Shown one piece after another: positions 1 through 34,916 of a stretch of DNA of 64,000 nucleotides. The stretch comes from Macrostomum hystrix. Its lineage: Eukaryota; Animalia; Platyhelminthes. A program made the position numbers and the translations under genes. Below the pieces are notes generated by a model. The model was not told the origin of the DNA and did not search any database. It worked only from the letters and a program-made list of their open reading frames with translations. Each line of letters opens with the position of its first letter. Position 1 is the stretch's first letter. The DNA lies in the NCBI GenBank assembly GCA_950097015.1, contig CATNEN010000001.1:27156001-27220000 (forward strand). Direction: 5' to 3'.

Positions 1-176
1 TAGAGTTGCTGTGAAGTTCTTTCCATTGTCCGTGGACATCTCCATCGGGATCCCAAAAGTACAGAACACTGTGAATAGCGGAGGTTTTGCTTGCATATTT
101 TATCTGCCTCCTTTTCCTAATCCATTCATATTGCACTATGCTGTTCAACCCCCGAATCATCATCCCCTCCGCCCAG

Positions 177-1619
177 GTTCAAGATACCCGTCTGCGCAGT
201 TCGGCAAGACAATGCCTTCTGCTCCATCGGCAGGCGGAGCAAGCTCGCAGAGATTCTGCGGAACGCGCGAATCATCGTGTGGGACGAGGCACCGATGACG
301 CACCGCAAGGACCTGGAGATCGTGGACCGGTCTCTGCGAGATCTGCTGCGGGTCGAGCAGCCGTTCGGAGGAGCGCTGCTGGTGCTAGCCGGCGACTTCC
401 GCCAGCTGCTGGCTGTGGTGCCCGGAGGAACGCAGGCGAACACGATCGACGCCTGCCTGACTCAGTCGGCTTTGTGGCCACATTTCCAGCAGCACCATTT
501 GACAAGAAATCTGCGGCTCGAGAGCGACTCTGATGCCAAAAGCTACGCAGATTTTCTTATGCAGGTGAGAAAATAATTCCTTCACTATTTTGCATAAACT
601 TTTAAATTAATGCGTTTCATTCATAATCTACTTTCTAAAACTAATTTCCGAATAACTACAATATTTTGCTTAATCCATTTCTGCATGCTTACGGACACTA
701 TTAAATAAATAATTCTATGGAACGTGAAATGTCTTTTTTATTCCACAATTCCATTAGGTTGGCAACGGAGAGCTGCCAGAGGACGAAGAGGGCATGGTTT
801 CCCTGCCTAGCGAGATTCTCATGCCTGATGACACAACCACTGAGCAGCTCATCCGGCACGTCTACCCGTCGTTCGAGCCAAGCCCGCACCGTGACCAGAT
901 GTTCGCGGAGCGGAGCATTCTGTCGCCGCTCAACAGGACGGTAGACGAGACCAACGCCGCCTGCCTGGCGCTCTTTCCTGGAGACAGTCGGGCTTATCTA
1001 TCAGTCGATTCGATTCCGAACGACGATGTGGCAGCTACCAATTTTCCACCGGAGCTGCTGAACCGACTTGATCCCAACGGCTTGCCGCATCACCGGCTGG
1101 AGCTCAAGGTCGGCATGCCGGTCATGATGATGCGGAACCTCGACCCACCGCTGCTGTGCAACGGAACCTGGCTGCTGCTGCGAGACCTGCGGGACAATGT
1201 GCTGCTCGCGGAGGTCGCCACTGGCATCTACCGTGGGCGGCAGGTGTTTATTCCGCGAATCCCACAGGAGCCGAGTCCTACTGAGCTGCCCTTCACGTTC
1301 CGCCGCCTGCAGTTTCCAATCCGGCCATGCTTCGCCATGACCATCCACAAGAGCCAGGGCCAGTCGCTGAGCACCTACGCTGTCGACCTGACGACGGCCT
1401 GCTTTCAGCACGGCCAGCTCTACGTGGCTCTGAGTCGTGCGCGAAGTGCATCGGGCGTCAAGGTGCGCGCCCCAGGCGGTCGGACGCAGAACATCGTACT
1501 GCGGCAGCTCATTGGTAAGTTGAATTGTTAAATCTCTTACCAATCAAATTCTACATATTTTATACTCAATTTCATACTCAATTTGACTTCATTTTCTCAC
1601 CCTAGCACGCAACTTCTGA
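177..1619 (+). CDS. Helitron Rep/Hel protein, C-terminal PIF1-like helicase exons (5' part outside window)
   Basis: Spliced exons 177-564, 758-1514 and 1606-1619 have GT-AG junctions in consistent phase. PIF1 motifs: RFKIP, IVWDEAPM, AGDFRQLL, LELKVGMPVMMMRNLD, CNGT, RRLQFPIRPCFAMTIHKSQGQSL, HGQLYVALSR. Confidence 0.88.
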
Positions 1620-4561: not shown

Positions 4562-4761
4562 ACTGACTTTCTGTTTTAATTCTTTTCTGTGCGACTGATG
4601 ATTGATTGCAGTCAAAGAAAACATATTGGATGGGAAAGTCAGGAAAAATTGTATGTCTGGTCAGAATGACAGAAATAACTGAAATTTATAAAAGGCATGA
4701 TGAAAAATAATTAAAGTTATTAAGCATTCTTTTTTCTCTGTACATTTTCTCTCACTTGCAG

Positions 4762-6566
4762 ACAGCGATGACCTGGTCAATATGTTGGATGCCAGGCAGT
4801 TCATTCTCGATGAGACTTCTGACTATTTAAAACAACTTCTGCGTTCATGGGCACTGTCACAAAATCCGACAACATCATCTGTGAATGACTTGCTGCAGCG
4901 TCTGAATAGCAGGTTTCCACAACTTCCTCGGGACTACCGCAGCCTGTTGTCAACACCCCGAACTCTTTCTCTACGCTGTGTGCAGCCTGGAAACTATTTC
5001 CATTTTGGGTTAGCTGCAGGGTTGAAGTTTGTTTTGTCTTGTTTGGACGTAAGCATAAACAGCCTAAAGTTAGATCTCTTCCTGGACGGTGCTCAGGTGT
5101 TTGACAGCACGCAGATTACAATGTGGCCCATCATTGGCCGGCTTCATGGGATTGTTAAATCGGAGTTTCTAATTGGACTTTATTGTGGGAAGCACAAGCC
5201 AAAAAGCGCTAAAGAATTCCTCAGCGAATTGATCGACGAGCTTTCAAATCTCAAGGCAAATGGGTTGAAGATAAATGAGGAATCCTGTCCTATTCCTTTT
5301 GTCGTTGGAATGATAATGTGTGATAGTCCTGCGCGTAGCTTTATTCGAGGGACAAAAGCCTGCTGAGGCTACTCAGGCTGCGACAAGTGCCTCGTTGAAG
5401 GCGAGTACAAAAACAGAAAAGTCTGCTTTTGTGACTCGGATGCCACATTGCGCAACGATCGCGATTTTCGGTCAGGAGTGTATGACGATACGCATGTACT
5501 AACTGCAAGTCCGTTTTTGTCTTTAGCGAGTGTTGATATGGTTTGGAGCTTACCTCTGGATCCGATGCACCTAATTTACGAGGGAGCCGTTTTTAAGTGC
5601 ATAAAAAGTTTGACTTCAGCTGCGGTCCCATATCGTACCAGTGCAGCAGCCATGCGAGCTATGGATGCCGATTTGGTGAGCTTTAGCAGTTTCATCCCTC
5701 GAGACTTTTCGCGCAAGCCGCGACCAACGTCCATTATCGGCTGCTGGAAGGCAACTGAATTCAGACTGTTCGTCTTGTACCTTGCACCAGTCGTGCTAAA
5801 GCCTCATCTTCCCGATTGTATGTACGAGCTGCTTCTGAGTTTGCACACCATTGCCTTCCTAATGTCACACCCGCGGTGCTACGAATTTTGCGAATACGCT
5901 GAAACGTTGGCGAAGTGGTTCGTCCGCCAATGTAGGTCGGCATGGGGCGACGATTTCATTGTGCACACAATACATGCGCTGATCCACATTCCAGACGAGG
6001 TGCGTATGCATGGTCCACTGGAGCAATTCAGCTGTTTTTGGGGGGAGAATTTTCTCCAGTTCATTGGAAAGTACTGCCGTAGCTCCAACCATTGTCTCGA
6101 GCAGGTTGTTAAGCGCGTGAAGGAGAGGGATGTCACTTGCGGTCTGTTCCCAAAGCATTGTACCACGACGGCAGTTTCTTTGAGCGCTCAACTTAATTCG
6201 TTGCCGGACGAGATGCATGGGCTAAGAGTGCTGACTTCTCACACAAGTGCCAATCTGAAGGAGAAAAATACAATTATTACTGTGCACGAACCCGACTGCT
6301 TCGTGTTTCTGTCTGATGGTACTCCGGCGAAGATTGAGTTCATCCTAAATACCGACAATGGAATAGTCCTTCTGTGCCTCCCGTTCTTTGGTATGGGCGC
6401 ATAGTACAATTCCACGATTGATTCAGCGTCGATCAATATTGTCATCTTCGGTGGCATTTCCGAGACCGTGCGGCGAGTCAAGCTGCACGAGGTGCTTTCC
6501 AAGGCCATGGTTTTGCATTTGAGGGGAAAGCATTACGCGTTTCCCATCCTGCATACGATAACTTAA
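4762..6566 (+). pseudogene. EnSpm/CACTA (CMC)-type DDE transposase with two in-frame stops
   Basis: One reading frame with nonsense codons at 5364 and 6402. Motifs: LDG..F....MWPI, CDSPAR, GYSGCDKC, LRNDRDF, LDPMHLIYEG, WKATEFR, H.LIHIPD, HGPL..FSCF..ENF, C-terminal FPILH. Splice acceptor at 4760-4761. Confidence 0.85.
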
Positions 6567-6865
6567 GGGCGCAGGAAAGGTGAATTACGAGTAGCTGGTG
6601 AATCAACTGCACCAGGCAGCTTAGAAATAGCCCTGCTTCAAAGTAATCTACAGTGTATGTACTCGTAGTTTATTGTAGTATCATTAAAATTAGCATTTTA
6701 CGGTGCGTTAACGCTATGTCGTTGCAGCCTATATGTTACATTGCTATATGACTTACTTGATTTAGCGGCAGGGAGCCTCCATGACGGACGCAGCGAGGAG
6801 GCGGCTGATGCCGCCCATATCGCTAACCCCTGGCAGCCAGACAGCCTCCAGCGAGGCGGTGCCGC

Positions 6866-7251
6866 TCAGGGTGGTCCGTCGGTCGATTCCGCCGCGCGAT
6901 ATTCCTCGCCATAGGCTGGGAAGAAATCAGCTCGGCCGGTATCCCGGAGGAAGTGGGCGAGCTGTGGGATGTTCTCGGGCGAGCAGGCTTCGGCGAGAGT
7001 CTGTGCCGGCCCGAGATGTTTTAGCCTAGCCCGGGTGAAGGCCGGGCAGTGGCAGATGAAATGCTCTGCATTTTCGCGTCCGGAGCAGCAGAAGGGACAC
7101 GTTTCCTCAGGCACGTGGCCTTGAAGGTAGCGGTGTCTGGTGAAGCAGCCATGTCCCGAAAGAGCCATAGTGACTGCTCTTAGGTCTCTGCGGTTAAGCC
7201 TGAGTAAGGCCTTACGCAGGTTACTAGAGGGGGTTGGCACGCAGCCCTGGA
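6866..7251 (-). pseudogene. LINE ORF2 C-terminal region with zinc finger, cut off by a stop and a frameshift
   Basis: LSGHGCFTRH and CPFCCSGRENAEHFICHCPAF. TAG in place of Q in CR(Q)SR, plus a 1-nt shift near 7235-7250. Confidence 0.75.
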
Positions 7252-8772
7252 CTAGCGACAGTTCAGGGTGCTGGACCACCTCCTCCGGTGCTGGGTCTCC
7301 ATCCAGCAGTTGATGCTGGAGTTGACAACTGAGATGGGGATCGGGGACTCCGGGCCCGGGCCCATCAGGGAGCTGGCTGCTCCAGCCTTAGCAAGCTGGT
7401 CCGCCATCTCATTCCCTGTGAACCCGGCATGCCCAGGGATCCACAGCAGCTCCACCTTGTTAGACTGCGCCAACCCGTTTAACTGGGTGTTGCAGTCCAA
7501 GGTGGTTCTGGAGCGAGAGGTGCAGCGGCTGAGGGCCTTGAGGGCTGCTTGACTGTCGGAGTGAAAAAAGATCCTCCGACCAGCCAGCTGCCTCTGGCGC
7601 AGCTCAACCGCACAGAAGCTGATGGCGAGCACTTCGTTTTGGAAAACGTTTTGGCGAGACGACTGGGCCCTGCCCCCAGTCCTAACCTCGGGGTCCGAGG
7701 ACCCTTCAGTGTCCGGTACGGTGGTGGGCCCGGTCTGACCTCGAGTTTTATCTGCCTCGAAGGCGAAGATTTTGGTCTTCCACAGACCAATGCAGATGTT
7801 GGCGCCATCTGGGTATCGGCGTGTCCATTGCTCGGACAGGCCCAGAATGGCGGTGAACCCGGTGCCATCGGGGCGCAGGATCGTGCGGTGCACGATCAGG
7901 CCCGCTGTCGGCAGCTCCCGGTTCATCGCGATGAGGCCCATGCGGAGGTCCTCAGCGCTGGTGACGACACTTTTCGCCGGGACGAAAATGCGGTGTCGCT
8001 TGGTCTTTGGTGGCTCGTTCTCCCGGAGGAAGTCGAGGCCAGCCGCCCAGCTCTGCGTGGGCAGCAACTCAAGGAGCCGCCGCCCTGATTCCGCGTCGCC
8101 GGGCCAGACGACGAAGCACGATTCCCTGGTAGCGCTTGCACCGACCGCCAGGGGCTCGCCCTTCAGTTGAAGTTGCCACAGCATAGCATCTATGTTGCGG
8201 CAAATGTTGCTGAGCTGTTCGCTGCTCAGCCTTTTTCCGTCTCTGCCGGTGATGACAACGGCAGGTTGCCTACGTGCGATGGCGGCGTAGGTGGCATGTG
8301 GTCCCGGGCCCTGTCCGGTGGCGACCCCACCCTCGGGATCAGCGTCGGCGGTGGGCACAGGGCCCTCTGCCTCCGCTTCTCCTTCAGGCCGAGCCGCCGT
8401 CCGGATGGGCGCCGGGACCTCCTTGGCCCGCGACCCTGGCCTCGGGGCGTCGTGGGCTCCGCCCCGTGCAGGAGCCTGGGCAGGAGGCGCAAGGCCCCCC
8501 GCCCCAGCCCCCGCCCTAGGCAGAGCCCCTTCGGCCCCTCTGGCCTGGGCCCGGTCCTCGGTCGATGGAGCCGGCTTGCCGTGGGCCATTAAGCGCCTAC
8601 GACGCTTTGCCGCTCCAGAGGTTGTGGAGCGCTTAGCGCCCCGGTCATCGCGCGAGTTGGGCAGCGCGGCATTTGTGGCGGTCGCGGGGCCAGCTAGCCC
8701 GGGCGCCGCAGCGTGTATGGCCTCGGGCACCATGGTGTCCTCGGCCGGAGCAGTAGGAAGGCTGGAAGCCAT
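7252..8772 (-). CDS. ORF1 (gag-like, DUF4780-like) fused in frame to RNase H
   Basis: RNase H motifs VFQNEVLAI, FHSDSQAAL and WIPGHAGFTGNEMADQLAK directly follow an Ala/Pro-rich ORF1-like region. First ATG at 8772. Confidence 0.75.
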   Translation of the reverse strand: MASSLPTAPAEDTMVPEAIHAAAPGLAGPATATNAALPNSRDDRGAKRSTTSGAAKRRRRLMAHGKPAPSTEDRAQARGAEGALPRAGAGAGGLAPPAQAPARGGAHDAPRPGSRAKEVPAPIRTAARPEGEAEAEGPVPTADADPEGGVATGQGPGPHATYAAIARRQPAVVITGRDGKRLSSEQLSNICRNIDAMLWQLQLKGEPLAVGASATRESCFVVWPGDAESGRRLLELLPTQSWAAGLDFLRENEPPKTKRHRIFVPAKSVVTSAEDLRMGLIAMNRELPTAGLIVHRTILRPDGTGFTAILGLSEQWTRRYPDGANICIGLWKTKIFAFEADKTRGQTGPTTVPDTEGSSDPEVRTGGRAQSSRQNVFQNEVLAISFCAVELRQRQLAGRRIFFHSDSQAALKALSRCTSRSRTTLDCNTQLNGLAQSNKVELLWIPGHAGFTGNEMADQLAKAGAASSLMGPGPESPIPISVVNSSINCWMETQHRRRWSSTLNCR

Positions 8773-9028
8773 TTGAAGCTGCAATGAGGAGAGGGGCTTC
8801 CTGTAGACACAGGCAGGAATAACCCGCTCAGCCGCGATCCCAAAGCTGAGCGGGGGCAGCCAAAAAAGTCAAGTTACAACCCGGGGTGGGATGCCAGGAC
8901 TACCGGGAGGGTGGGATGCCAGGACTACCGGGAGGAACCGTAGGAGGCCAGACTACTCCCCGGTCAAGCGTCCATCAGCATGGTCAACACTGGGACATTA
9001 GAGGGCGCTATTTGGCCAGCGCCGGGGC

Positions 9029-9391
9029 CTGCGGACTGGCCGCATACCCTGTTAAGGTCAAAGGGTGACACCTTTCCCTCAGAGCCGTAGCCAGAGGTAC
9101 CTGATCACGCACAGGTGCACGAACGCTGCGGACTGGCCGCATACCCTGTTAAGGTCAAAGGGTGACACCTTTCCCTCAGAGCCGTAGCCAGAGGTACCTG
9201 ATCGCGCACAGGTGCACGAACGCTGCGGACTGGCCGCATACCCTGTTTAGGTCAAAGGGTGACACCTTTCCTTCGGAGCCGTCGCCAGAGGTACCTGATC
9301 ACGCACAGGTGCACGAACGCTGCGGACTGGCCGCATACCCTGTTAAGGTCAAAGGGTGACACCTTTACCTCAGAGCCGGGGCTAGAGGTAC
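9029..9391 (-). repeat. 97-bp tandem repeat (~3.7 copies) in the LINE 5' UTR
   Basis: Unit starts at 9031, 9128, 9225 and 9322. Confidence 0.92.
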
Positions 9392-9432
9392 CCAGTTAGG
9401 CCGGAGGCCCTGGATGGGTCATCCAGCGCTGT

Positions 9433-9661
9433 TGCCCATTCTGTCCCGCTGCCCTAGGGTCAGCCTTGAACACTCGCGGGACGTGTACCCATGGGTCAGC
9501 TGACGGGACAACGTGGAGAGGATTCCTGCACCCGGAGGCACAGGTCTCCTTCCTGCCAAGCCTGCTCAAAAAACGACTGCAGGTGTGAGGCATCGCAGAC
9601 CTTAGCCCGTAGGCCTGGTCTGACTCATACCACACAGGCATTGTGTCCCGCCGGTGCGAGC
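9433..9661 (-). ncRNA. HDV-like self-cleaving ribozyme at the LINE 5' end
   Basis: Minus strand: P1 GCUCGC/GCGAGU with first G-U wobble; P2 CCCAU/AUGGG; P3 GGG/CCC; L3 UACACGU; P1.1 AC/GU; P4 GCUG-CCC/GGG-CAGC; J4/2 CAGA; large J1/2 insert. G1 abuts the TSD. Confidence 0.85.
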
Positions 9662-9685
9662 CATTGCTATATGTATTTCCTATAG

Positions 9686-10450
9686 ATTCCTATAGGAACG
9701 CCGACTCTTCAGCGGCAGGAGTCTACCCAGCCTGGAAGGAGCACACCGGCTTTGCAGGCTAGTAAGTAGCATTTTTGCTTACTCATCCTGATGCCGTCCG
9801 CTTTCCACTTTGGCGCATCCTCTTTTTAGGTGCTTCCTTCTCTGCCAGATTGGAGGTGCTCGAGTCGAAGATGGATAGGCTAATTAACTGGTTAGATCAG
9901 CAAAAGGGAAACAGACAAGACCATCAAATTGCATTGAACAATTCTGCGTTAGATGCACTTCCCTTTGATGAGTGGGACGCGCTGCGTAAGTGGGCATCCA
10001 CAGTTAAGGAGCAGCGGGACGCCACGGAAGATGTGGTAAGTAGTTGGGCTCAGTGTTTTTGCTTTTAATCCAGCCACATTTTTTGTTGGTCCGTTACTTT
10101 TTGATAATGCTCATTGACTTCGAAATTTCGTTGCAGTACGTTTTTTTTCGGCGTCTCGGTGGCAAGTCTGTTCAAGCATTCGTCTCCAACATTATTTACA
10201 AGCTGATGACCAACCGTCTCGCTGCAGAGACCAGCCTTCGGGGGGCCATTCGAAACGGCAAAGCAAAAAACTCATTTAGTGACCTCGAACTCATGTCCCT
10301 CATTAAGAGTAAGTAGAATACATACAGCAGTGCATTTTTATGCATGCGTGCATGTGTCCTCTGTCATAAAAATAATGTATTCCACTGCTGTATAAATTCG
10401 ATCCCAATTTCTCAGACGTTGTTTGGAGCAGCTTCCGTCAGCCTCTCACG
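9686..10450 (+). pseudogene. DUF4806-like accessory gene of the EnSpm element (spliced fragments)
   Basis: Exons about 9686-9760, 9830-10035, 10137-10308 and 10416 onward. Peptides LP...W..L, LGGKSV..FV.NI..KLMTN.LA...SL.G and K..FSDL.L are typical of DUF4806 proteins. Confidence 0.65.
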
Positions 10451-13431: not shown

Positions 13432-14006
13432 TGTGACGCTGAAATTTCATATTTAGTGTGCCATGACTCATGACCCGCATTAAAACTCTAACCCTTTCTC
13501 TTTTCTTTTCTCCCTTTTCCTGCTCTGCTGAATAATTTTAGTGTGCTAATCACAGATTTTGGGCTTGCACGCTCATTGGCTGGGACTGTTTCCGAGAGTT
13601 ATCGATCGCCCTGTTTTACAGTCTGTCTAGTTAATTTAACTAAGGGCTTTAGGCCCGCTCGCGCCCCATTCCCTCTCGCCACCAGTCCTCCTTGTCCTAG
13701 CCTACCTGGTGCTCCTGTTCCTGTTTAACACTGTCTAGTGCCACCAGTTTCTGTCCGCCACACCTCGCTGCCATTCTCTCAACTCGCCTTCGCGCAGCTC
13801 TTATTATCATTACCTTTGCGTGTCATCACCCTTTGTACATTTTGAGCTCCTGCACCTGACTTGTATTAATCCACTGCTTGTTGTGCGCCTCAGTGTTCGC
13901 AAATAAATATTAAGTGCTACCGCTACACCGAATTCTACTCTGTGTGAACTAACTTGGAATCGCTGAGTTATCATCGCCGGACTTGGTTATTTCAAGAATC
14001 GTCACA
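13432..14006 (+). repeat. LTR (TGTGACG...CGTCACA), chimeric and shared between two elements
   Basis: 7-bp terminal inverted repeat. 13560-14006 is nearly identical to 18803-19248, but the first 128 bp differ. AATAAA at about 13902. Confidence 0.85.
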
Positions 14007-14012
14007 CTATTT

Positions 14013-14029
14013 TGGAGGTCCCACCGAGA
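14013..14029 (+). promoter_or_regulatory. Primer binding site complementary to tRNA-Gln 3' end
   Basis: TGGAGGTCCCACCGAGA, 6 nt after the LTR, is the reverse complement of TCTCGGTGGGACCTCCA. Confidence 0.85.
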
Positions 14030-14870
14030 CTCAGACTCTGCACTGCCGGACGCACGACGGTGTTAGCGAGCTCCTGTCTATCGCCTACTGTCTACTGCCT
14101 GTCATCTGTACTATTGTCTATCGCCTGCCTATTGCCTATCGTCTGCCTATTGCCTATCATCTGCTATTACGTGCCGCCTGTATCGATTGTTCATCACCAC
14201 TACCGTCGGCTATTACCTACTGTTTGTCGAGTCTTAAAACGGCCCTTTTAAGGACACCGGGCTGTTTGACCCTATTCACGGCCACCGTCGGTCCATTGTT
14301 CATCGCCTGTTGCCATCGGTTCGCCTGGGGATACCGGCTCGTCGGTCATGGTGATATCAGCAGCTGCACCTGCGGTGACGGCGATCTGGACGATCGCCCA
14401 GTCCCGGATTCGAGCGTGCCAAGCGTGCCGAGCGTGTCGAGCGTGAGCCCGCGGCCGATCAAGGAAGCCGACCGGAACCGAAGCACCCGGTGCGCACTCG
14501 TCGATCCGGTCCCGGCGCCGAGTACGTCGCCCGCTGACAACAGTAGCGTTGAGCTTGACTCCGCGTTCAGGTTACGCTGTGCGCCGATTTTTTTTGTGTA
14601 GGGACTATACCGCCTGACTTGATTAGCTGGGGTGGTTTGCGTGATAGGAATCTCCCTATTAGGCCGTGGTTTTGTGCCCCAGTCAGGCATTTAAGTATTA
14701 GGACGCACTCTCATTCTCTCGCCTTCTCGCCCTGTCCACCCGCCATCGACTTCCGCCGCTTGGCAAAATCGTTTTTGCTGGAATCTTCTTTCGCTCACTC
14801 TGCTCACCTTGCCTAACTGCAGGCCGCTCGTGCCTGACCTTGCTCTTGCACTCTTCGTAGCCGTTTCGCC

Positions 14871-16529
14871 ATGTCCGATAATGGCGACGATCAGGTCCAA
14901 GCCCCACCACAACTCGGTGGAGGCGAAATTGATGCCGACCCTGCCGAAGTAAATTCCATAGGGTCCACCGATCAGCCTGAGGGCGCTGTCGGTGTCAGTG
15001 AGCACGTCTTACTTGCTCAGACTCTGGCTTCTCTTCATAAGATGATAGAGGCTCGTCTTACTGCCCACTCACCGGCGACATCCAGCCTAGATAACTCCTC
15101 GCCGTCAGTGGTACCGAAGCAACCTGAGATTCGCCTTCGGCCGCCACCGGCTTTCAATCCCAAGATGAAATTTGACACTTGGGAGGCTCAGCTCATGTCG
15201 TATATAGCCACCTGCCGTGTCCCAGAGGACCAGCGCTCTGCTGTCCTAGTGTCTCTACTGGCACCCGAGTGTCAGGAAGTCTTCCTCAACTACAGCTGTG
15301 ACCAATTGCCATTCGAATCCGCCATTCGTGTGCTTAGGGAAAGGTACACGGATGCCAAGCAAAAGGATAAGGCATATGTCGAACTAGTTGCTGCTTCTCA
15401 AAGCCATTCGGAACTTATGTCCAAGTTCTTCGATAGATTAGTCTCGTATACCAGATTAGCGGGCCTCTCGCTCACCGAAGCGAAACCCCTGATCAAAGCT
15501 CGGTTCTGTCATGGCCTATGTGACAAGGGGCTTGCCGAAAAGCTTCTCTTGTGGGATCAGGAGACAGATAGTGCGGCCTCTGCTGAAGAACTCATGCAGA
15601 AAGCCAAGGACCTCGTTGGGGTCTACCAGCTCCTAAATATGCCATCTACTATAGCCAGAATTCGCACCGCTGAACCAGATGCCGAAAAAAGGGCTATGGA
15701 ACAACGTGTCGCTGAATTAGAAAGGTTAGTTCACCAACAAGCTGAGGAAATTAAACGAGCTGACCAGACTAGGTTGCCGCCCGTGCAACAGATAGAGCGT
15801 ATGTATCAGACTACACAGAATAATCTCTCACCGCCAAGGCGTCGCCTTGCTCAGCCGCAGCGTAATCTCTCGCCGAAGAGAGAACGACCTTATTATCAGC
15901 CACAGATAAACTCTCGCCCTCCTCGGGCATGCCATAGATGCGGTCGGACGGGCCACTTGGTCGCCGACTGCCCTTCATCACCGCCTAGAATCATTCCTCC
16001 TAATCCAAATAAGGGGAACCAAGGTTCGAAACCGATCCGTGAATCAGGTCTCACGGAGATCGGGACCATAGCTTCTTGGTCATCAAACTTTGGGTTCATC
16101 CAATCCGAACAGCTGCCAGAACAACTGTTCGTCCACGGCAGCCAGCTCTCACCTGAATTAAGACAGCTAGCCGATCAGCATCGTCTGGTGGGAACTAGGG
16201 TGTGCTACCAGAGACAGGTAGACCCCGGTCGCCAACACGATAAGGCTTGTAATGTACAACACCAACCGAAGGATGGCGATCCTCAATGTAGACATTGGGA
16301 TGCTATTCCAGACAAATTTGAATCTAGCTATTTCGTGCAACTAGAAGTAGGTGATTCTAAAATACTAGCTTGTCTAGACTCAGGTGCCACTGCTAGCGCC
16401 ATGGGTGTAGACTTGCGAGATAGATTGGTCGCCGCCGATCCAGTCAACAATGTATTTATGCCTAGTACTTACACCAGCCTTCAATGGATCTACAACCGAA
16501 ATCCTAGGAACGTTGCGTTGCGAAATTAA
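14871..16529 (+). CDS. Gag (capsid-like, coiled coil, CCHC knuckle) + cold-shock domain + protease N-half
   Basis: CHRCGRTGHLVADC (15930-15971). CSD: GTIASW..NFGFI...LFVH...VGTRVCY...DKACNV (about 16056-16260). Protease CLDSGA. Confidence 0.85.
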   Translation: MSDNGDDQVQAPPQLGGGEIDADPAEVNSIGSTDQPEGAVGVSEHVLLAQTLASLHKMIEARLTAHSPATSSLDNSSPSVVPKQPEIRLRPPPAFNPKMKFDTWEAQLMSYIATCRVPEDQRSAVLVSLLAPECQEVFLNYSCDQLPFESAIRVLRERYTDAKQKDKAYVELVAASQSHSELMSKFFDRLVSYTRLAGLSLTEAKPLIKARFCHGLCDKGLAEKLLLWDQETDSAASAEELMQKAKDLVGVYQLLNMPSTIARIRTAEPDAEKRAMEQRVAELERLVHQQAEEIKRADQTRLPPVQQIERMYQTTQNNLSPPRRRLAQPQRNLSPKRERPYYQPQINSRPPRACHRCGRTGHLVADCPSSPPRIIPPNPNKGNQGSKPIRESGLTEIGTIASWSSNFGFIQSEQLPEQLFVHGSQLSPELRQLADQHRLVGTRVCYQRQVDPGRQHDKACNVQHQPKDGDPQCRHWDAIPDKFESSYFVQLEVGDSKILACLDSGATASAMGVDLRDRLVAADPVNNVFMPSTYTSLQWIYNRNPRNVALRN

Positions 16530-17778
16530 ACTAGGGAAACTAACGAAAATACATGTATTTCTAGTGATGGCCGATGCCACTGCCGAAGCCCTTCTGGGCA
16601 TAGACTTCCTTCAGAGTTTCGAGATGATGTTAGATTTCAACTCAAATTGCGTTATGGTAGCCGGTACATCGGTGCCCATCATTGAGAAAGATAATGAGAC
16701 CCTCCAAGTTCGATCTTTCGAAACTCTTTCGCTAGCAAGGGTCGCTGAATGCGATTTCGCTGTAAAATATCGGCCAGGCGCAGAGCGCGTGAATGCCGAT
16801 GCTCTCAATAGACTGCCGACATTCCGGCCCGACCATTCCGATTGTCCCACTTACAGTCGGATTCCAGAATTCCAAGAGAGGTTCAAGCCCAAGGACCCTA
16901 AGTCCAGGGTACCTAAGGAACCCACAGTCCAAATGCGCCACATAAGCGTAAGAACCACGTGCTGTGATGCCACGTGCCAGACCGACACCATCGCGCTGCC
17001 CGCCATCGTGGTGCCCACGCCGAAACCTTTGCTGTCGCCCGAGTCCAATGTCCGATCTGTTGAACCTTCAACCGTTACCGCTTATCCGCAACCTAAACCC
17101 ACTACTGCTAATAACAAGACCGAGACCAAGACCGCCGCTAGACGCCTTGTAGTTACGGAAACTGCAGACGTTAGCCAATGTGAACTTCAGTAACGTAGCC
17201 AACTGAACCATTGCGGAATCACCAAGACGATGTCCGCTCTGAAAGCTCGCTTTGACAATTCTAACCTAGATACGATTACCAAGCGAGTCCCCGCAGAGTG
17301 TAACATTGGTGCGCGGGCGAAAAAGTCAAAGCTCAAAAGGCAAAGGAAAAAGAAAAAGAAGCAGCCAAAAGCCAATCGCTATGGACAAGCCAACACCGCT
17401 GGGTCCTCTTCAAACACACCTAGCCAATCAGACTCTAAGCTATCATCTGACGACTTCAATTTACTCACTCTGCCACACCAGACCACACCTGTAGCCCCGA
17501 CCTCACGTCTTCCGGAAAGAGAGGCGGATGCTGTCGCTGAAACCCTCCCTTCGACCCCTTCGTCGGGAGAGTCTGGAACTGAAACCAGCACCGGAACCAC
17601 TTCCAGTACAACCTCTAGCCCCAGTGCTAGCTCAGAGCAGGAAGAGTTGGTGGAAGAAACTTCTGAATCGGCTGTGTCCGAACCAGTGCCTGCAGTTGAA
17701 GTCAGGACTAGATCAGGACGATTAGTCCGCCCACCAATCAGGTACCGCCCGTACCAAGTCAAACCGCGCTCCTGTTAG
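16470..17778 (+). pseudogene. Protease C-half, RNase H tail remnant and low-complexity tail (frameshifted; stop at 17191)
   Basis: ALLGIDFL; DFAVKYRPG..VNADALNRLP; terminal RTRSGRLVRPPIRY motif typical of pol ends. Confidence 0.7.
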
Positions 17779-18586
17779 GTCTCCGACCTAATTCAGTGGC
17801 TGGGTAGCCAGCACTGAAGGGCCAGTTGTGGCCCTGGGCATTAAACTACCTCCTTCGGCATTAGCAGGCCGACGGTCTCCTGTGGGAAAAGGGAAAACCA
17901 GCGCTGCTGGTCGGCCCTCGAAAGCCGGAGCGCCATGCAGGCGTTTCTCAGCGAGCAAACACATCCAGTCAGCCACACACAGTCGGTCACAAAGCACACA
18001 AGACACCAAGCCACAAGCCAAAGTAAACAAGAAACCAAACCAAGCCAAATCAAGTAACAAAGCCACAAATCAACCCAAGTCACGTAATAGTTCAACATCC
18101 GGTAGGCGCACGCCAACGTGTGCGATCGTGATGCGGTTTTCGCCTCATGGCCTCCTCTGTCATGGCCTCCTCTATCTTTGCCTCCTCTACCCTTGTTCAT
18201 TGCATATCATTTCACCGTCACTTGCTTCACCCTGCTTTTCGCATAGGTATTTGCGCGTGTACTTTGTAATCTTTGTAGTATCCAGCCATGCTGTGCGAAG
18301 CGTGCATCCTCTCCGTTTATGTGGCCCTGTGAGTTGGACCGCAACTCACGCCGCGCCATTCTCACAATTTTTGGTTGTGTCATTTAATCTAGGTTTTGTA
18401 ATGTTGTAATTTTTTGGGTAATCATAATCTATAGTTATATGGGTAGATCCACGCGCCCATATCTGGCCTTGACCTTAGTAATGTGAACTTATGCCTCGCT
18501 CTGTAATACCATTTTCCTCCTCGCTCGCTGTGTTTACCCGTCGCTCGCCATTTTGCTGGTACTCTTTCTTTTTTGGAAGAGGCGAG

Positions 18587-19248
18587 TGTGACGTTGTCAC
18601 TGTCACTGTGAATTGTAACTTACGTACGAATTCCTAATATGTAATAACTTGGGCCGTTTAAATAATGTCTTTTTGCTACCTTCAATTTATCCAGTTCATA
18701 TAATTATTATTCTGTGCGCGCTACTGTAAGTAGACGTGGATGCACACCGCGCTGCCCTAGCTTATTTTCTACTAATGTCTCAAGCTATTCTGCCCTGTCC
18801 AGTGGGCTTGCACGCTCATTGGCTGGGACTGTTTCCGAGAGTTATCTATCGCCCTGTTTTACAGTCTGTCTAGTTAATTTAACTAAGGGCTTTAGGCCCG
18901 CTCGCGCCCCATTCCCTCTCGCCACCAGTCCTCCTTGTCCTAGCCTACCTGGTGCTCCTGTTCCTGTTTAACACTGTCTAGTGCCACCAGTTTCTGTCCG
19001 CCACACCTCGCTGCCATTCTCTCAACTCGCCTTCGCGCCGCTCTCATTATCATTACCTTTGCGTGTCATCACCCTTTGTACTTTTGAGCTCCTGCACCTG
19101 ACTTGTATTAATCCACTGCTTGTTGTGCGCCTCAGTGTTCGCAAATAAATATTAAGTGCTACCGCTACACCGAATTCTACTCTGTGTGAACTAACTTGGA
19201 ATCGCTGAGTTATCATCGCCGGACTTGGTTATTTCAAGAATCGTCCCA
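18587..19248 (+). repeat. 3' LTR
   Basis: Starts TGTGACG after the PPT and ends CGTCCCA. Its 3' ~446 bp match the upstream LTR. Confidence 0.88.
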
Positions 19249-19249
19249 C

Positions 19250-27771: not shown

Positions 27772-28718
27772 GGGATCCAAACATCTATCCTTGTTCATAC
27801 TGCATTGACTTAACTATCTTTCTTGAGAAACACCTAATTTCCTACAACTGGTTAATGGATACATAAAGAAGATTCAAGTCCCAACTGATGATTTGAATGC
27901 TGCTAGGCCTAATATAGCAGCAAACCTGTTTCTTTGAAACCTACATGATTAAGCTGTCAATGGTGATTTTGCTATTCCTATAAGTTCTATGGCCATTATA
28001 AGTATAATATCAAACAATTAATTGATCTTAATGAGGGATTTCTACACTAATATGTAGACTGTTAACCTAAACTCCTTGCTTTTTGTTCAATCTCTATAGC
28101 TTAGTTATATTTGTTTGTTGCTGACAGTTGCCTTTTATGCACACCTTTAACAATGTTTCTATGCCGATGCATGCTTGCCATGTCTACCACACGAATTGGA
28201 TCAGACATTAATAGGGGTCCATGAGACTTGCCCGCAGGCGAACTGCCCGCCGAGATTTGCCCGCAGGAGATTTGCCCGTCGAGATTTGCCCGCCGAGGTT
28301 TGCCCGCAGAGATGTGCCCGCAGTGCATTCTGCCCGCAGGAGATTTGCCCGTCGAGATTTGCCCGTCGAGATTTGCCCGTCGAGATTTGCCTGTCGAGAT
28401 TTTCCCGCAGAGATTTTCCCGTCGAGATTTTCCCGCAGAGATTTGCCCGCAGAGATTTGCCCGCAGAGATTTGCCCGCAGAGATTTGCCCGCAGAGATTT
28501 TCCCGCAATGCAGTTTTAATCTTGCAAAAATCGACTTATACTTATCGAAATTATTTACCTGCCAGATTTCAACCGTGTGAATCTGAAACTCTTACTGCCG
28601 CAAATGCATAAGATATTTCTTTGGCATTTCGCAGACACCTCAAATTTCCTTTCTGCTAAATTACTGTAGCCTGTTCTATAATCTTTTGTAGCAGCAATTT
28701 TTTGCTGGTGCCTGGTGG

Positions 28719-28926
28719 TAGGGATGGTAAAATCCCGGCTAGTTTCCAATCCCAGGATTGTCGGGTTCGGGATATTCCTGTCCAACTCCCATAAAATCCC
28801 CAGCATTTTCAGTCCCAGCAAATCCCGAAAAATTGAAATCCCGCTGAATGGTGGGCAATTTTAAGTCCTGAGATTGGAATTCCAGGTGTTTGCTCTCAAA
28901 TCCCGGTCCCGGTATTGGAATCTCTA
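28719..28926. mobile_element. hAT-type MITE inserted at the inner edge of the left MULE TIR
   Basis: TAGGGATG...AATCTCTA ends, ATCCC/GGGAT subterminal motifs, flanked by CCTGGTGG / GCTGGTGG. Confidence 0.7.
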
Positions 28927-29644
28927 GCTGGTGGAGCGCTGTCTGTTTCAAATTCACATGTCAGCCGCCTGGATTTTATCACCTCGATCTGCTCAACCAC
29001 CGAACGACAAATCCAGTAAATAAGCCATGGGGTCCTATATGGTGCATGTCGGGGACCCCACGACATTTTATAATCTGGCCCTTACATAGAGTATGAGTAT
29101 GCAGAGCATTTTCTAAAAACATCGCCTTGTGCATGTGGCGACGGGCAGCTGGCTTATCTATATAACAAATTTAATGAAATTTAAAGACCTGCTTATTAAC
29201 TCCTCGCTAAAGATCCAGAAAGCAGTGTAAACAAAGTCTGATGTGATTCTTTCTCGCTAATTCTATCCTGGACCCCTATATCTCAATTCCCAGTCTTCGA
29301 TAAAATGTCCATAAAATCTGTCTGGATTTCATTCTCTCTGGGTCTGGGTCTGGGTCTGGGTCTCTCATTCTCTCTTCTCTTTCTGATTGGCTGCAGGCAC
29401 CCCACCCCTTTAGCCTCCTTCTTGTCTTGCGTGCCCCTCATTCCTTTGATCGCGCCTCCTAACCCAACCCCTCTCTTTGCCCACCCCTCCTTTCTCTCAA
29501 CCCCTTGTTATCTCCTATAATATATAAATACACTGCCCTTCCTTACTGCTTAGTGTATTCAACTTTAGTCTGGTCAAGTTAGACTGCGACAACTCTACAT
29601 ATATAAAGTGAATTTCAAGACAACGTTAATAACAAGCAGACCAC

Positions 29645-31087
29645 ATGGAAGCAGCTCCTCCCATCGCTGTGCGCTTTAGTGCAACAATTCGTGGGAAGCG
29701 CAAAGCAGCCTGCGAAGGCTACTACTTTACACTTGAAAGAACTAGCCTGGTCGACGAAGAGGTGTCATTTTGGCAGTGTGAAGAACGGCGCTTGGGATCA
29801 TGTCCTGCTCGAATCCACATCCGGAATGGCTTTAAAGTGCGACAGCTGAATGACCACAATCACGGACCTGACGGCTCTCGATTCCAAGTTCTTGAGGCTC
29901 TTCGGGAGATTAAATCGGATGCCAGGAACACCGTGAATTCGACGGCAAATATCGTCATGGAACACACAAATGGGCTGTCTGAGTGTGCAGGCATAGCCCT
30001 TCCATCTCAAAGTGCATTAAAGCGGCAAGTTCAAGATGTTCGTCAAACGCACCAAGGTCTTCCAGTACAGCCGCTCAACCGAGCCGAGCTCATTATACCT
30101 GAAGAATTTCAATTCAACAACGGAGCACTGTTTCTGCTGCATGACTCCGGACAGGACAACAATCGAATTTTAATCTTCGGTAGCAAGGATAACATTCAAG
30201 CCCTGCAATTGGCGACAGATTTCTTCTCGGACGGCACATTCGATGCCTCGCCGCCACTGTTCGCTCAACTGGTGACAGTGCATGCCGAACTTCAAGGCTT
30301 CATAAGACCACTCATCTACGCATTGCTACCCAACAAGACCGAAGCAACGTACTGTCGATTTTACGAGGCTCTGCATCAATTGGCGCCGAACATGAGGCTA
30401 CTTCGCTGGATGTCAGATTTTGAGCGAGCTAACATGAATGCTGTTCAGCATGTCTTTGGCATCGAGTCAACAGGCTGTCTATTTCACCTCGTTCAGTGCG
30501 TGTACAGAAGAGCAGTTGCTGAGGGATTAAAGCGTCAGATTGAAGAAGAAGATGGCGAGATGTCCGTCTGGCTGCGTTGCCTTTCTGCTTTGGCCTTTGT
30601 GCCTATTAATAGTGTTCCAGCAGCATTTGATGAGTTAATAATGCTGCCTGACTTTCCTGCGGAGATGGCTTCAACAGCAGACTATTTTGAAGCCCAGTGG
30701 GTCGGCCATCGACTTCCTGGCGGAGGAAGACGGCAGCCTCGATTCTCACCTTCAATTTGGAATGTTCGTGAGCGAACTTTGAATGGACTTCATCGCACGA
30801 ACAACGCAGTTGAAGCCTGGCATAGGAGGTTCCAGTCAATTCTGGGTTGCAGCAATCCGAATGTTTTTCGGCTCATGAAGGACCTCAAAAAGGAAGTCGA
30901 ACACCAGGCACTGCTGATGCAGCGAGCCAACGCTGGTGAAGCACCGAAGGAGCGGAAGAGATACGTGCAGAGCAACGCGATGCTTCTTCGCGTCACGCAG
31001 CGTTGGAACGTCGAAGGTGGCGGTCTGCCTGCTGACTTTCCTTTGCGTTCCTACCTGAGGGGCATCGCTCACCATTTAAAGAAGTGA
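29645..31087 (+). CDS. FLYWCH zinc finger + MULE DDE transposase (intact, 480 aa)
   Basis: FWQC...CPAR...HNH; SDGTF; YALLPNKTEATY; MSDFE; GCLFH; RTNNAVEAWH. Confidence 0.93.
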   Translation: MEAAPPIAVRFSATIRGKRKAACEGYYFTLERTSLVDEEVSFWQCEERRLGSCPARIHIRNGFKVRQLNDHNHGPDGSRFQVLEALREIKSDARNTVNSTANIVMEHTNGLSECAGIALPSQSALKRQVQDVRQTHQGLPVQPLNRAELIIPEEFQFNNGALFLLHDSGQDNNRILIFGSKDNIQALQLATDFFSDGTFDASPPLFAQLVTVHAELQGFIRPLIYALLPNKTEATYCRFYEALHQLAPNMRLLRWMSDFERANMNAVQHVFGIESTGCLFHLVQCVYRRAVAEGLKRQIEEEDGEMSVWLRCLSALAFVPINSVPAAFDELIMLPDFPAEMASTADYFEAQWVGHRLPGGGRRQPRFSPSIWNVRERTLNGLHRTNNAVEAWHRRFQSILGCSNPNVFRLMKDLKKEVEHQALLMQRANAGEAPKERKRYVQSNAMLLRVTQRWNVEGGGLPADFPLRSYLRGIAHHLKK

Positions 31088-33366
31088 TCTGATTGACAAC
31101 GGTAGCTATCCTTACAATTTTGGTTTCTTGCTGCACTACATACACTAAGAAGCAATAAATTTAATATTCTGTGCTCTAGTTTCATTGTGGCCTATATAAT
31201 AATAGCTCCCGCTTCCATGGGATTCGCAAAGGCATTCACTTTGTGCACTTTAAACCCTCGTATTTAGCACTGCGGTTGCTTCTAGTTTCTGAAATTTGGT
31301 TAGGTCAGAGAAGTTCAGTGAACCCACAGTCTTCTGCCTACATAACAACTCACCCCTCCTCCCCATTCCCTTCCCTTCCTCTTGTAGGTTGCCATTGTAA
31401 CTGTATCACTGAATGCTTTTGTTGCCATGTACTCCGTCATCCACCTGTTCCTGTCTTGCGATGCACAGTAAATGTTAACAATTGGTCAATCATTTTCATA
31501 TTGTTTTCATTATTGCTCAATAAAAAGTTATCGTTAAGCGAATGCAAAGTAAAAAATGCAGTAGAGTACAAAGTTGTTTTAAGTAATTGAACCCAAGGAC
31601 TTGATTGAAAGGGAATGAATAGGGAAGGATCAAATGGATGTGCTGGCGCTGCACATCGGAAGATTTGCTCCTTTGGGGTGCTAAATTCCGTTAATGTGTG
31701 AGCTAAGTAGAGTGAAAATTGCTAATTTACCTACTGCAATTCATTTTCGCTTGTATTATGCATGCATAGTGATTGTACAATCGCTGTTGAACCTGTTAAT
31801 TCGCAATTAATGCCAATGATACCTACAGCCTCACCATCTTTTGACTTGCGACGCTTAAATACCTTGTTCTACTTTTTGCCAAGTGAATGTACAAAAATAG
31901 CTATTGTATTGTGCGGTTCTGTCAAGGGAAAAATAAAGTCATTACCTTATTAAAATATGCGACAAGCTATGTGAGCTGCTCCACCAGCAAAAAATTGCTG
32001 CTACAAAAGATTATAGAACAGGCTACAGTAATTTAGCAGAAAGGAAATTTGAGGTGTCTGCGGAATGCCAAAGAAATATCTTATGCATTTGCGGCAGTAA
32101 GAGTTTCAGATTCACACGGTTGAAATCTGGCAGGTAAATAATTTCGATAAGTATAAGTCGATTTTTGCAAGATTAAAACTGCATTGCGGGAAAATCTCTG
32201 CGGGCAAATCTCGACGGGAAAATCTCTGCGGGCAAATCTCGACGGGAAAATCTCGACGGGAAAATCTCTGCGGGCAAATCTCGACGGGCAAATCTCGACG
32301 GGCAAATCTCCTGCGGGCAGAATGCACTGCGGGCACATCTCTGCGGGCAAACCTCGGCGAGCAAATCTCGACGGGCAAATCTCCTGCGGGCAAATCTCGG
32401 CGGGCAGTTCGCCTGCGGGCAAGTCTCGTGCTCCCCATTAATAGAACTGCCATGGCATTCAAATCAACAAGTACAATTACTCTACCATAAACATGTCACA
32501 TAGCTCCATGCACAACTAGTAAATTGAAAACTATCACAAGTTTAATTTTTCACTACTTAAAATATAGTCTTAATTTTTCATAAAATAATTAAACAAGCAA
32601 ATGCAAAACTAGACAATTACCTATAATAATTTTTTTCAACTTTTTTAGTGTGACTGACTGGTAGTAATGAGTTTTGCCATTTAATTTGCAACATAATTAA
32701 ATATATTATATTTTTATGAGTAATAATGCATTCTTTGTAGGCCCCATAGTCCGGATCACCCCTTGCTAACCCTATTGGCGTATATTGGCATACAACCAAA
32801 AAATTGGGCCCTACCTATTGGCGTGAGTGGCGTACACGCTGTTCCTTTTGCAACTTGCAATGTAATGTACATAAACATTAGTATTTTTTGGAATTTGCAC
32901 AATAATTAAAAAAATGGAATTTATGTTAGAAATACATTCACTTTAACAAAATACGAGGGCTGTCCCAAAAGTAGTGTTACTTTTGATTATATCTTTTGAT
33001 CTGATGGTTCAAATAACGTGATTTTACACAGTCTTATAGCGGCAAGTCTCTTCTTTATATTAATTCAAATCTTTTTTCTAACAGACTAGGGAAATAGAAG
33101 TTATCAACGAAAAACTAACAGGACCTCAAACATAGACTTACAGTAAATCAACATGCTACGAAAGTGCTTTCGACTGAGGTCACTCTTTCAACCAAAATTT
33201 CTCAATTTCTCAATCCGCGACAAAGATATGTCTCTGGAAAAATCATAATGAAGTTATAATTTGAAAGTTGTCTCTGGAAAAGATGGAATGAAATCTTCAT
33301 ATCTCTCACTGGGACTTGGCTTCAGTACGAGCATTTTTGTTCTCATTTCTTGCTGTGCTAAAGATC

Positions 33367-34613: not shown

Positions 34614-34916
34614 AGAGGAGCGTTTCAATTGCTACGAGAAAACTTCATATTTGCAACCACTTAACTGTTGGTCATTTTTGCTTGCTTGTTGATTTACTGT
34701 AAGTCTATGTTTGAGGTCCTGTTAGTTTTTCGTTGATAACTTCTATTTCCCTAGTCTGTTAGAAAAAAGATTTGAATTAATATAAAGAAGAGACTTGCCG
34801 CTATAAGACTGTGTAAAATCACGTTATTTGAACCATCAGAACAAAAGATATAATCAAAAGTAACACTACTTTTGGGACAGCCCTCGTATATTCCCATCTA
34901 TTGCTCTATTGAATAA

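What the first reader, a model, noticed from the sequence alone, without database searches (positions are those of the whole stretch)
9433..9661. HDV-like ribozyme with a large J1/2 insert defining the exact 5' end of a LINE
Seen: all nested double-pseudoknot elements can be drawn on the minus strand. P1 has the G-U first pair; P2, P3, L3 UACACGU, P1.1 AC/GU and P4 are present; the catalytic-position C lies in CAGA. Predicted G1 (9661) abuts the 12-bp TSD. About 170 nt are looped out in J1/2, closed by GGCGGGACA/UGUCCCGUC. Established: HDV-like ribozymes process 5' ends of R2, RTE, L1Tc and LOA-type elements. The AC/GU P1.1 and long insert would be missed by standard descriptors.
Basis: partly seen in the sequence, partly recalled or inferred. 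Interest (0 to 1): 0.75.

Follow-up and report, generated by a model that had tools for sequence, protein, structure and literature searches.

The report
Self-cutting RNA heads flatworm retrotransposon
The first 234 bases of this internally deleted jumping gene, likely from a Macrostomum flatworm, can pair into the fold of a known class of self-cutting RNA that is predicted to cut the element's RNA free at its first base; this is a new example of a known device, and this particular copy carries a private base change predicted to misfold it.

Summary
Observation confirmed, with corrections. All HDV-like helices are present on the minus strand, and G1 (9661) abuts a 12-bp TSD. A relaxed descriptor, written after seeing the sequence, finds only this site in 64 kb and nothing in 300 shuffles. 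Other copies end at 9661-9663 with different flanks. A related high-depth family changes both P2 strands and keeps every pair.

Corrections: J1/2 is 155 nt, not 170. The element is a 2.9-kb internally deleted LINE without endonuclease or RT; its closest named proteins are from Macrostomum lignano. Long J1/2 domains are known (216-498 nt in silkmoth R2). Two published descriptors reject the L3 A; a third accepts it and fails only on J1/2 length.

New: at 9447 this copy differs from nearly all the depth in the six runs laid, and that letter is predicted to misfold the core. The UTR has 13 upstream ATGs and two trans-splice-like acceptors just before ORF1; this is untested.

Cleavage was not assayed and no RNA run was listed. 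The scan noted ribozyme-headed Vingi elements in another genome, not this DNA. Verdict: new member of a known kind.

The parts
9662..9673 (-). Upstream target-site duplication (12 bp)
   Evidence: Exact match to 6739-6750; flanking letters differ
6739..6750 (-). Downstream target-site duplication (12 bp)
6751..9661 (-). Internally deleted LINE, 2911 bp
   Evidence: TSD pair; ORF1 and RNase H homology; no endonuclease or RT
9428..9661 (-). Predicted HDV-like ribozyme; predicted cut between 9662 and 9661
9656..9661 (-). P1 5' strand, starting with G1
   Evidence: Pairs with 9472-9477
9502..9652 (-). P1.2 domain in J1/2: 9-bp closing helix and three hairpin arms, two capped by C(UNCG)G loops
   Evidence: MFE -76.2 kcal/mol, z -5.29, 0 of 200 shuffles
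9491..9500 (-). P2 5' strand with 4-bp extension
   Evidence: two-sided changes in a related family
9478..9490 (-). P3 and the 7-nt L3 loop, with A at the position of HDV C21 / CPEB3 U21
   Evidence: CPEB3 numbering from bioRxiv 2022.09.22.508989 passages
9470..9477 (-). P1 3' strand (9477-9472) and P1.1 3' strand GU (9471-9470)
   Evidence: no other letter listed here, where three contigs span (nearly) the whole stretch
9444..9469 (-). P4, with a private G at 9447 (C in other copies) predicted to create a competing helix 9481-9476/9449-9444
9440..9443 (-). J4/2 CAGA, C9443 at the catalytic position
   Evidence: Fits CNRA of published descriptors
9428..9439 (-). P2 3' strand with extension
9410..9426 (-). 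Hairpin directly after the ribozyme
   Evidence: z only -1.4; one two-sided change in the related family
9029..9392 (-). 5' UTR tandem array, 97 bp x 3.8
   Evidence: no folding signal (z 0.56)
8884..8935 (-). 5' UTR tandem repeat, 25 bp x 2.1
8779..8806 (-). Two YTNCAG acceptor-like sites just before the ORF1 ATG, downstream of all 13 upstream ATGs
   Evidence: motif from PMC8629364 passage; function untested
7252..8772 (-). ORF1 (DUF4780-like domain) fused in frame to an RNase H remnant; deletion junction between about 7741 and 7650
6866..7250 (-). C-terminal ORF2 remnant with Cys/His motif, in another frame after a stop
   Evidence: (53% identity to the end of P0005)
6751..6865 (-). 3' UTR ending in a short AAGT-type repeat, no poly(A)

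Best explanation
This is the 5' end of a LINE family, likely of a Macrostomum flatworm, whose first 234 bases can pair as an HDV-like double pseudoknot that is predicted to cut the RNA just before G9661 and so likely sets the element's start, while this copy is predicted to be weakened by a private base at 9447. Shown: the pairings, the TSD next to G1, other copies ending within 9661-9663, and two-sided changes in P2. Inferred from known HDV-like ribozymes: a transcript reading in from upstream folds as it is made; the 151-nt P1.2 domain and extended P2 hold P1 and P2 together, as in Agam-2; C9443 and Mg2+ drive the cut; the product starts with a 5'-OH G and keeps the ribozyme, which is copied into each new full-length insertion. 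The second P1.1 pair is likely A-U where HDV has C-G and CPEB3 has U-U. This copy lacks endonuclease and RT, so if it moved in this form it would have used those of a full-length parent of about 6.3 kb (inferred from P0001 and P0005).
For: All helices pair and the only descriptor hit starts at the TSD border; 0 hits in 300 and in 5000 shuffles. Summed contig depth in run X1 falls from 40,997 (9645-9658) to 7,841 (9659-9672) to 624 (9673-9686), and the loose ends at 9661 and 9663 are mixtures of different flanks (agreement 0.59 and 0.53). One high-depth contig, seen in X9 and X10 (same study and organism, so one observation), matches 9440-9490 at 46 of 51 letters; its P2 strands read CCCAGA/UCUGGG and GCCG/CGGC against CCCAU/AUGGG and GCUG/CAGC here, all pairs kept. 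Two contigs of a further subfamily (X9, X11) share sequence up to a G that starts a P1-like strand and then diverge. Of 24 listed substitutions between 9441 and 9632, 15 are unpaired, 3 keep a pair and 6 break one, against 60% expected to break (binomial 6e-4). With the common letter at 9447 the minimum-energy fold is the ribozyme's nested skeleton P1.2, P2, P3, P4 with both P1 strands free. A sea-urchin ribozyme in the RNArobo supplement has the same P3 and L3 but CC/GG at P1.1. LOA, R1, R2, R4, RTE and Ingi are listed as ribozyme-bearing clades (PMC5786205, passage).
Against: No cleavage assay and no RNA data. Three of the five differences in the high-depth contig were not located by the tool, so L3, P1 or J4/2 changes there are not excluded; no A-U/C-G exchange at P1.1 was seen within this family, so only the C-G pair may form. 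P1 covariation was not seen directly, since the two strands lie on different contigs. Three of 7 listed boundary contigs run on to 9663, more than random flanks would give (1 in 16 each). With this copy's own letter at 9447 a competing helix has probability 0.99 and P3 0.0. With the common letter, P2 and P3 probabilities fall from about 0.5 to 0.06-0.3 once the RNA extends past 9410. A partial reconstruction of X11 record 9 (9 of its 13 substitutions plus its gap) folded into another minimum-energy structure. The substitution tally uses only rows the tool listed, is not independent, ignores transition bias, and counts 9447 as kept by construction. 80 distant relatives (30-47% ORF2 identity) gave no descriptor hit above controls.
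Confidence: 0.82

Rival explanations
1. The fold is real and selected, but the 5' end is set by an internal promoter that starts at G1; the fold works mainly as a stable 5' cap or protein-binding module and cuts little or not at all.
For: L1Tc's first 77 nt are both promoter and ribozyme (PMC3383444, passages). A stable HDV-like fold improves R2 template insertion, suggested to act by limiting 5' decay (PMC11331408, abstract). The first hairpin arm (about 9575-9641) is the part of the insert still alignable in diverged subfamilies. The UTR has a tandem monomer array.
Against: G1 with its G-U pair, the L3 U and CG, and C in CNRA all sit where cleavage needs them; no change at 9443 is listed. 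These roles do not exclude cleavage.
Confidence: 0.12
2. The family ribozyme is active and this copy is too: the letter at 9447 is a sequencing or assembly error, or the pseudoknot and folding order outweigh the competing helix.
For: The letter is nearly absent from the runs: 41,081 of 41,352 depth in X1 and all depth in X5, X6, X9, X10 and X11 read the other base. ViennaRNA cannot score P1 together with P2; the P1 duplex alone is -8.2 kcal/mol, and P1 and P3 are made before the competing strand. P4 is very variable in R2 ribozymes (PMC3774820, section 16).
Against: The letter widens the gap between the competing helix and the open native skeleton from 1.6 to 7.7 kcal/mol. The copy has other signs of decay (a stop and frame change near 7250).
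Confidence: 0.3
3. The pairings are a chance drawing on a GC-rich repeat.
For: The descriptor was relaxed after seeing the sequence; Rfam found nothing.
Against: 0 hits in 300 window and 5000 element shuffles; the single hit starts at the TSD border; two-sided P2 changes.
Confidence: 0.02

Closest known systems
drz-Agam-2 HDV-like ribozymes of Anopheles gambiae (PMC4908430; first quarter of text and passages seen)
   Same: [quoted passage not shown]
   Different: Here P2 is 5 + 4 bp with an internal loop, not 12 bp; the domain has three arms; activity is untested
R2 ribozymes, including silkmoth R2 (PMC3774820; passages and section 16) and R2 SIDEs (PMC3414825; abstract)
   Same: HDV-like ribozyme at a non-LTR element's 5' end; 6-7 bp P1; long J1/2 (216-498 nt in silkmoths); internally deleted derivatives keep the ribozyme
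   Different: R2 inserts in 28S rDNA and has one ORF; this element is dispersed, has an ORF1, and its relatives have an APE-type endonuclease, RT and RNase H; the deleted copy keeps ORF1
L1TcRz/Pr77 of Trypanosoma cruzi L1Tc and NARTc (PMC3185411, PMC3383444, PMC4035085; passages)
   Same: Cut just before +1 of a dispersed, TSD-flanked LINE; P1.1 of 1-2 bp; downstream sequence can refold the core
   Different: 77 nt with a short J1/2 there; promoter activity shown there and untested here
Baggins/LOA-clade LINE ribozymes (named in PMC5786205 and PMC6765202, passages; the primary paper, Ruminski 2011, was not held)
   Same: Likely the same LINE clade: DUF4780-like ORF1, endonuclease-RT-RNase H-Cys/His ORF2
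   Different: The clade label is recalled from these features and not tested against named references; their ribozyme sequences could not be compared
CPEB3 ribozyme and sea-urchin HDV-like ribozymes (bioRxiv 2022.09.22.508989 passages; PMC4870747 supplement)
   Same: 7-nt L3 ending CACGU followed by GU after P1
   Different: U21-U38 in CPEB3 and C-G in one sea-urchin example, A-U here; P1.1 also varies in C. briggsae and Ackermannviridae ribozymes (U:A with C:U or U:U; PMC13635239, passages)

Membership tests
HDV-like ribozymes | Nested double pseudoknot: P1, P1.1, P2, P3, P4 in the right order | tested here: met
   all helices pair; one G-G mismatch in P4 is private to this copy
HDV-like ribozymes | G1 in a G-Y first pair of P1 | tested here: met
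   G9661-U9472
HDV-like ribozymes | L3 with first U and CG near its end; P1.1 of 1-2 bp | tested here: met
   UACACGU fits TNCNCGY but not TYYHCG.Y; C-G pair certain on paper, A-U pair inferred
HDV-like ribozymes | Catalytic C in CNRA of J4/2 next to P2 | tested here: met
   C9443 in CAGA; listed changes fall at 9441 and, in one low-depth contig, 9442
HDV-like ribozymes | Covariation of helices across homologues | tested here: inconclusive
   Two-sided changes in P2 and its extension in one related family; P1, P3 and P1.1 not phased; no alignment of whole copies possible
HDV-like ribozymes | Mg2+- and C-dependent self-cleavage 5' of G1 | not testable with these tools
   Needs a cleavage assay
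Ribozyme-headed non-LTR retrotransposons | Predicted cut site coincides with the element's 5' junction | tested here: met
   TSD ends at 9662; other copies end at 9661-9663
LOA clade LINEs | ORF2 with APE endonuclease, RT, RNase H and C-terminal Cys/His motif (features recalled) | tested here: inconclusive
   Present in relatives P0005 and P0010; this copy keeps only part of RNase H and the C-terminus; other clades also carry RNase H
LOA clade LINEs | RT groups with named LOA, Baggins, Bilbo or Lian elements | not tested
   No named reference among 120 listed RT relatives; the tree of 21 rows has no clade labels
Autonomous LINE | Intact endonuclease and RT | tested here: not met
   ORF1 joins RNase H directly
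SIDE-like non-autonomous family | The same internal deletion in many copies | not tested

The most novel reading that the evidence does not exclude
The ribozyme turns the 5' UTR into an outron. By cutting away any upstream host splice donor it leaves the acceptors at 8801 and 8779 unpartnered, so the host's spliced-leader machinery caps the coding RNA and removes all 13 upstream ATGs, while the unspliced 5'-OH RNA serves as the template for new insertions. The UTR has no GTRAG donor and two YTNCAG sites in its last 50 nt (0.3% of shuffles; 23 of 2558 50-mers in the window). About 30% of M. lignano genes are SL trans-spliced, at this motif (PMC8629364). This would answer how an uncapped ribozyme product is translated without an IRES. 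The test was chosen after seeing the sequence, weaker donor-like sites exist in the repeats, and no RNA was available.
Probability: 0.17. Interest if true: 0.72.

Novelty: new member of a known kind. Interest (0 to 1): 0.38.

Why it matters
It extends ribozyme-headed LINEs to a likely Macrostomum family; my searches found no such report (Ruminski 2011 was not available). It adds a natural A-U variant at P1.1 and a worked case that published descriptors miss. Macrostomum is a transgenic model with SL trans-splicing, so the open question of how uncapped, ribozyme-cut retrotransposon RNA is translated could be tested directly there. The natural G/C pair of alleles at 9447 is a ready test of misfolding. 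The device itself, and long J1/2 domains, are established.

Tried and rejected
No whole genome is held, so copies could not be aligned. Rfam: 3 weak unrelated matches, no HDV family. The core pattern has no second match in the window and none in metagenome or viral contigs. No RNA holder was listed among 11 runs; this is no evidence on expression. 80 loci of distant ORF2 relatives: strict descriptor 0 hits; looser descriptor 1 sense and 1 antisense hit with C against 1 hit with the three control letters, none at a plausible 5' end; none had a significant match to ORF1 or the UTR, and many do not reach a 5' end, so this says little. Cluster look-ups and an RT search gave no clade names; DUF4780 and LOA literature searches gave no usable link. 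A tRNA origin of the insert was rejected (0 genes). The 97-bp repeat has no folding signal. Pyrimidine-tract strength of the acceptors is unremarkable (7 of 95 YAG sites in the element tie at 13 of 17). The bacterial promoter scan is not informative here. An alternative P1 register using G9662 does not pair. Ruminski 2011 and Webb and Luptak 2011 were not held, and supplements of the bioRxiv preprint were not seen; they may already show LOA ribozymes with long J1/2 or A-U at P1.1.

Full report
1. Observation. The minus strand from 9661 to 9428 can be drawn as a complete HDV-like fold: P1 of 6 bp with a G-U first pair, a 155-nt J1/2 closed by a 9-bp P1.2, P2 of 5 bp with a 4-bp extension, P3, a 7-nt L3 (UACACGU), P1.1 with C-G and A-U, P4, and C9443 in CAGA. 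An exact 12-bp duplication lies at 9673-9662 and 6750-6739, so G1 is the first base of a 2911-bp insert.

2. Chance. I wrote a descriptor after seeing the sequence (L3 TNCHCGY, P1 6-7 bp, P2 5 bp, P3 Watson-Crick, G after P1, CNRA next to P2, J1/2 up to 300). It gives one hit on the two strands of the window, with G1 at 9661, and none in 300 dinucleotide shuffles of the window or 5000 of the element. The P1.2 domain alone folds at z = -5.3; the whole region at z = -3.1. Rfam found no HDV family. With published L3 and J1/2 limits my search finds nothing. In the RNArobo supplement (PMC4870747, parts 3 and 4 seen) the loose-P4 and stem-P4 descriptors need TYYHCG.Y and J1/2 up to 51; the 'mispairs' one allows TNCNCGY but J1/2 up to 15. 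So all would miss it, but not all because of the A.

3. The element. After an 889-nt UTR with a 97-bp x 3.8 array, ORF1 starts at 8772. Its domain scores 0.91 to DUF4780 clusters in the protein atlas (a lead, with no Pfam hit). It runs in frame into an RNase H remnant (E 3.5e-8); the C-terminal part follows a stop in another frame. The best named RNase H hits are Macrostomum lignano proteins at 67-69%, so the host is likely a Macrostomum. P0010 carries both the ORF1 domain and endonuclease, RT and RNase H, and P0005 is a full ORF2. About 3.4 kb is therefore missing (inferred). The LOA label is recalled from these features; no named reference was available. Whether the deleted form is itself a family was not tested.

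4. Other copies. No genome is held. Eleven DNA runs of three coded organisms hold the stretch or part of it; I laid 6 of the 11. In X1 summed depth drops from 40,997 to 7,841 to 624 across the bins 9645-9658, 9659-9672 and 9673-9686. Among listed loose ends (21 of 58 rows), 3 contigs end at 9661, 1 at 9662 and 3 at 9663, with mixed flanks. The boundary is thus 9661-9663; the excess at 9663 may reflect a target preference and is unexplained. Two contigs of a diverged subfamily share sequence up to a G that opens a P1-like strand and then differ.

5. Covariation. In X9 and X10 (one study, one organism) a contig of depth 808 and 648 matches 9440-9490 at 46 of 51 letters. Its loose ends give P2 as CCCAGA/UCUGGG and the extension as GCCG/CGGC, and the downstream hairpin changes U-A to C-G. 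Three of its five differences were not located. A further low-depth contig keeps the AC of L3 while P2 and P3 5' strands differ. Of 24 listed substitutions, 6 break a predicted pair against 60% expected; this tally is limited to listed rows, is not independent and counts 9447 as kept by construction. Within the main family no change is listed at 9470-9490. An A-U/C-G exchange at P1.1 is seen only across species: a sea-urchin sequence in the RNArobo supplement has the same P3 and loop with CC/GG. Eighty distant relatives gave no hit above controls.

6. This copy. At 9447 nearly all depth in all six runs reads C on the minus strand; the window has G. With C the minimum-energy fold is P1.2, P2, P3 and P4 with both P1 strands open (P3 0.77, P4 0.99). 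With G a helix between 9481-9476 and 9449-9444 takes the P3 and P1 3' strands (0.99), and its lead over the open native skeleton grows from 1.6 to 7.7 kcal/mol. The program cannot score the pseudoknots, and the letter could be an assembly error. Against my reading, native helices weaken as the RNA extends past 9410, and a partial reconstruction of one X11 contig folded differently.

7. Mechanism. Most likely (0.82) the family's RNA is cut co-transcriptionally before G1, freeing a unit-length template with a 5'-OH end from a read-through transcript; P1.2 and the extended P2 would hold P1 and P2 together as in Agam-2 (PMC4908430, first quarter and passages). Pairing, boundary and P2 changes are shown; cleavage, metal dependence and the role of the insert are inferred. 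Rivals: a promoter-set end with a mainly protective fold (0.12; PMC3383444 passages, PMC11331408 abstract), and chance (0.02). Separately, this copy may cut normally (0.3).

8. Translation. The UTR holds 13 ATGs, all upstream of 8974, so scanning from the 5' end is unlikely to reach ORF1. An IRES-like role has been proposed for such ribozymes (PMC6765202, passages). Here two YTNCAG sites lie in the last 50 nt and no GTRAG donor in the UTR (0.3% of shuffles for the pair, 24% for no donor; 23 of 2558 window 50-mers). These are the M. lignano trans-splice acceptor and cis donor motifs, and an acceptor without an upstream donor is the stated requirement for SL trans-splicing (PMC8629364, passages). 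A ribozyme that creates an outron is my most novel reading (0.17). It is post hoc and untested.

9. Comparison and novelty. [quoted passage not shown] J1/2 loops of 216-498 nt occur in silkmoth R2 (PMC3774820, passage). P1.1 varies widely (PMC13635239, PMC4035085, PMC3185411, bioRxiv 2022.09.22.508989; passages). Internally deleted elements that keep the ribozyme are known (PMC3414825, abstract). PMC6326823 and PMC10879173 (passages) gave the conserved positions and the control-letter idea. I saw no A21-U pair in these passages and no Macrostomum ribozyme in searches, but Ruminski 2011 and Webb and Luptak 2011 were not held. Earlier scan notes describe ribozyme-headed Vingi mini-elements in another genome and nothing like this DNA.

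10. Verdict. A real feature, a new member of a known kind with a minor P1.1 variant; interest 0.38.

Noticed in passing
window 8762-8806, minus strand: Three YTNCAG acceptor-like sites cluster around the ORF1 ATG (8806, 8784, 8767); the 889-nt UTR has 13 upstream ATGs and no GTRAG donor.
   Followed up: partly
window 9575-9641: The first hairpin arm of the J1/2 insert stays alignable in diverged subfamilies where the other arms do not; a possible protein-binding or promoter site.
   Followed up: no
window 9518-9585: One X1 contig skips 66 bases of the insert while leaving the closing helix strands, a natural shortened insert.
   Followed up: no
window 9440-9490 in runs X9 and X10: A related ribozyme-like family at depth 650-800, about 100 times that of neighbouring contigs; its 784-904 nt contigs could not be read further.
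   Followed up: partly
window 9662-9663: Three of seven listed boundary contigs share the two letters upstream of G1 with this copy, hinting at a target preference.
   Followed up: no
window 9677-9748: Host flank upstream of G1: a 9-bp hairpin at about 9698-9677 and a roughly 45-bp unit that reads as a tandem repeat in X1 and X5.
   Followed up: no
window 4704-6404, plus strand: Long frames resembling a DNA-transposon transposase (weak DUF4218 match); the LINE lies just downstream in the opposite orientation.
   Followed up: no
window 121-1531, plus strand: Pif1-type helicase pieces, likely a Helitron remnant.
   Followed up: no
window 13560-19249: Direct repeats 5242 bp apart flank a gag-like frame (14838-16529) with a zinc knuckle and a cold-shock domain match (E 3e-5, just under the cut-off), unusual for an LTR-element gag.
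   Followed up: no
window 28214-32436, 32948-34892, 34965-35635: Several elements with long terminal inverted repeats built of short tandem units.
   Followed up: no
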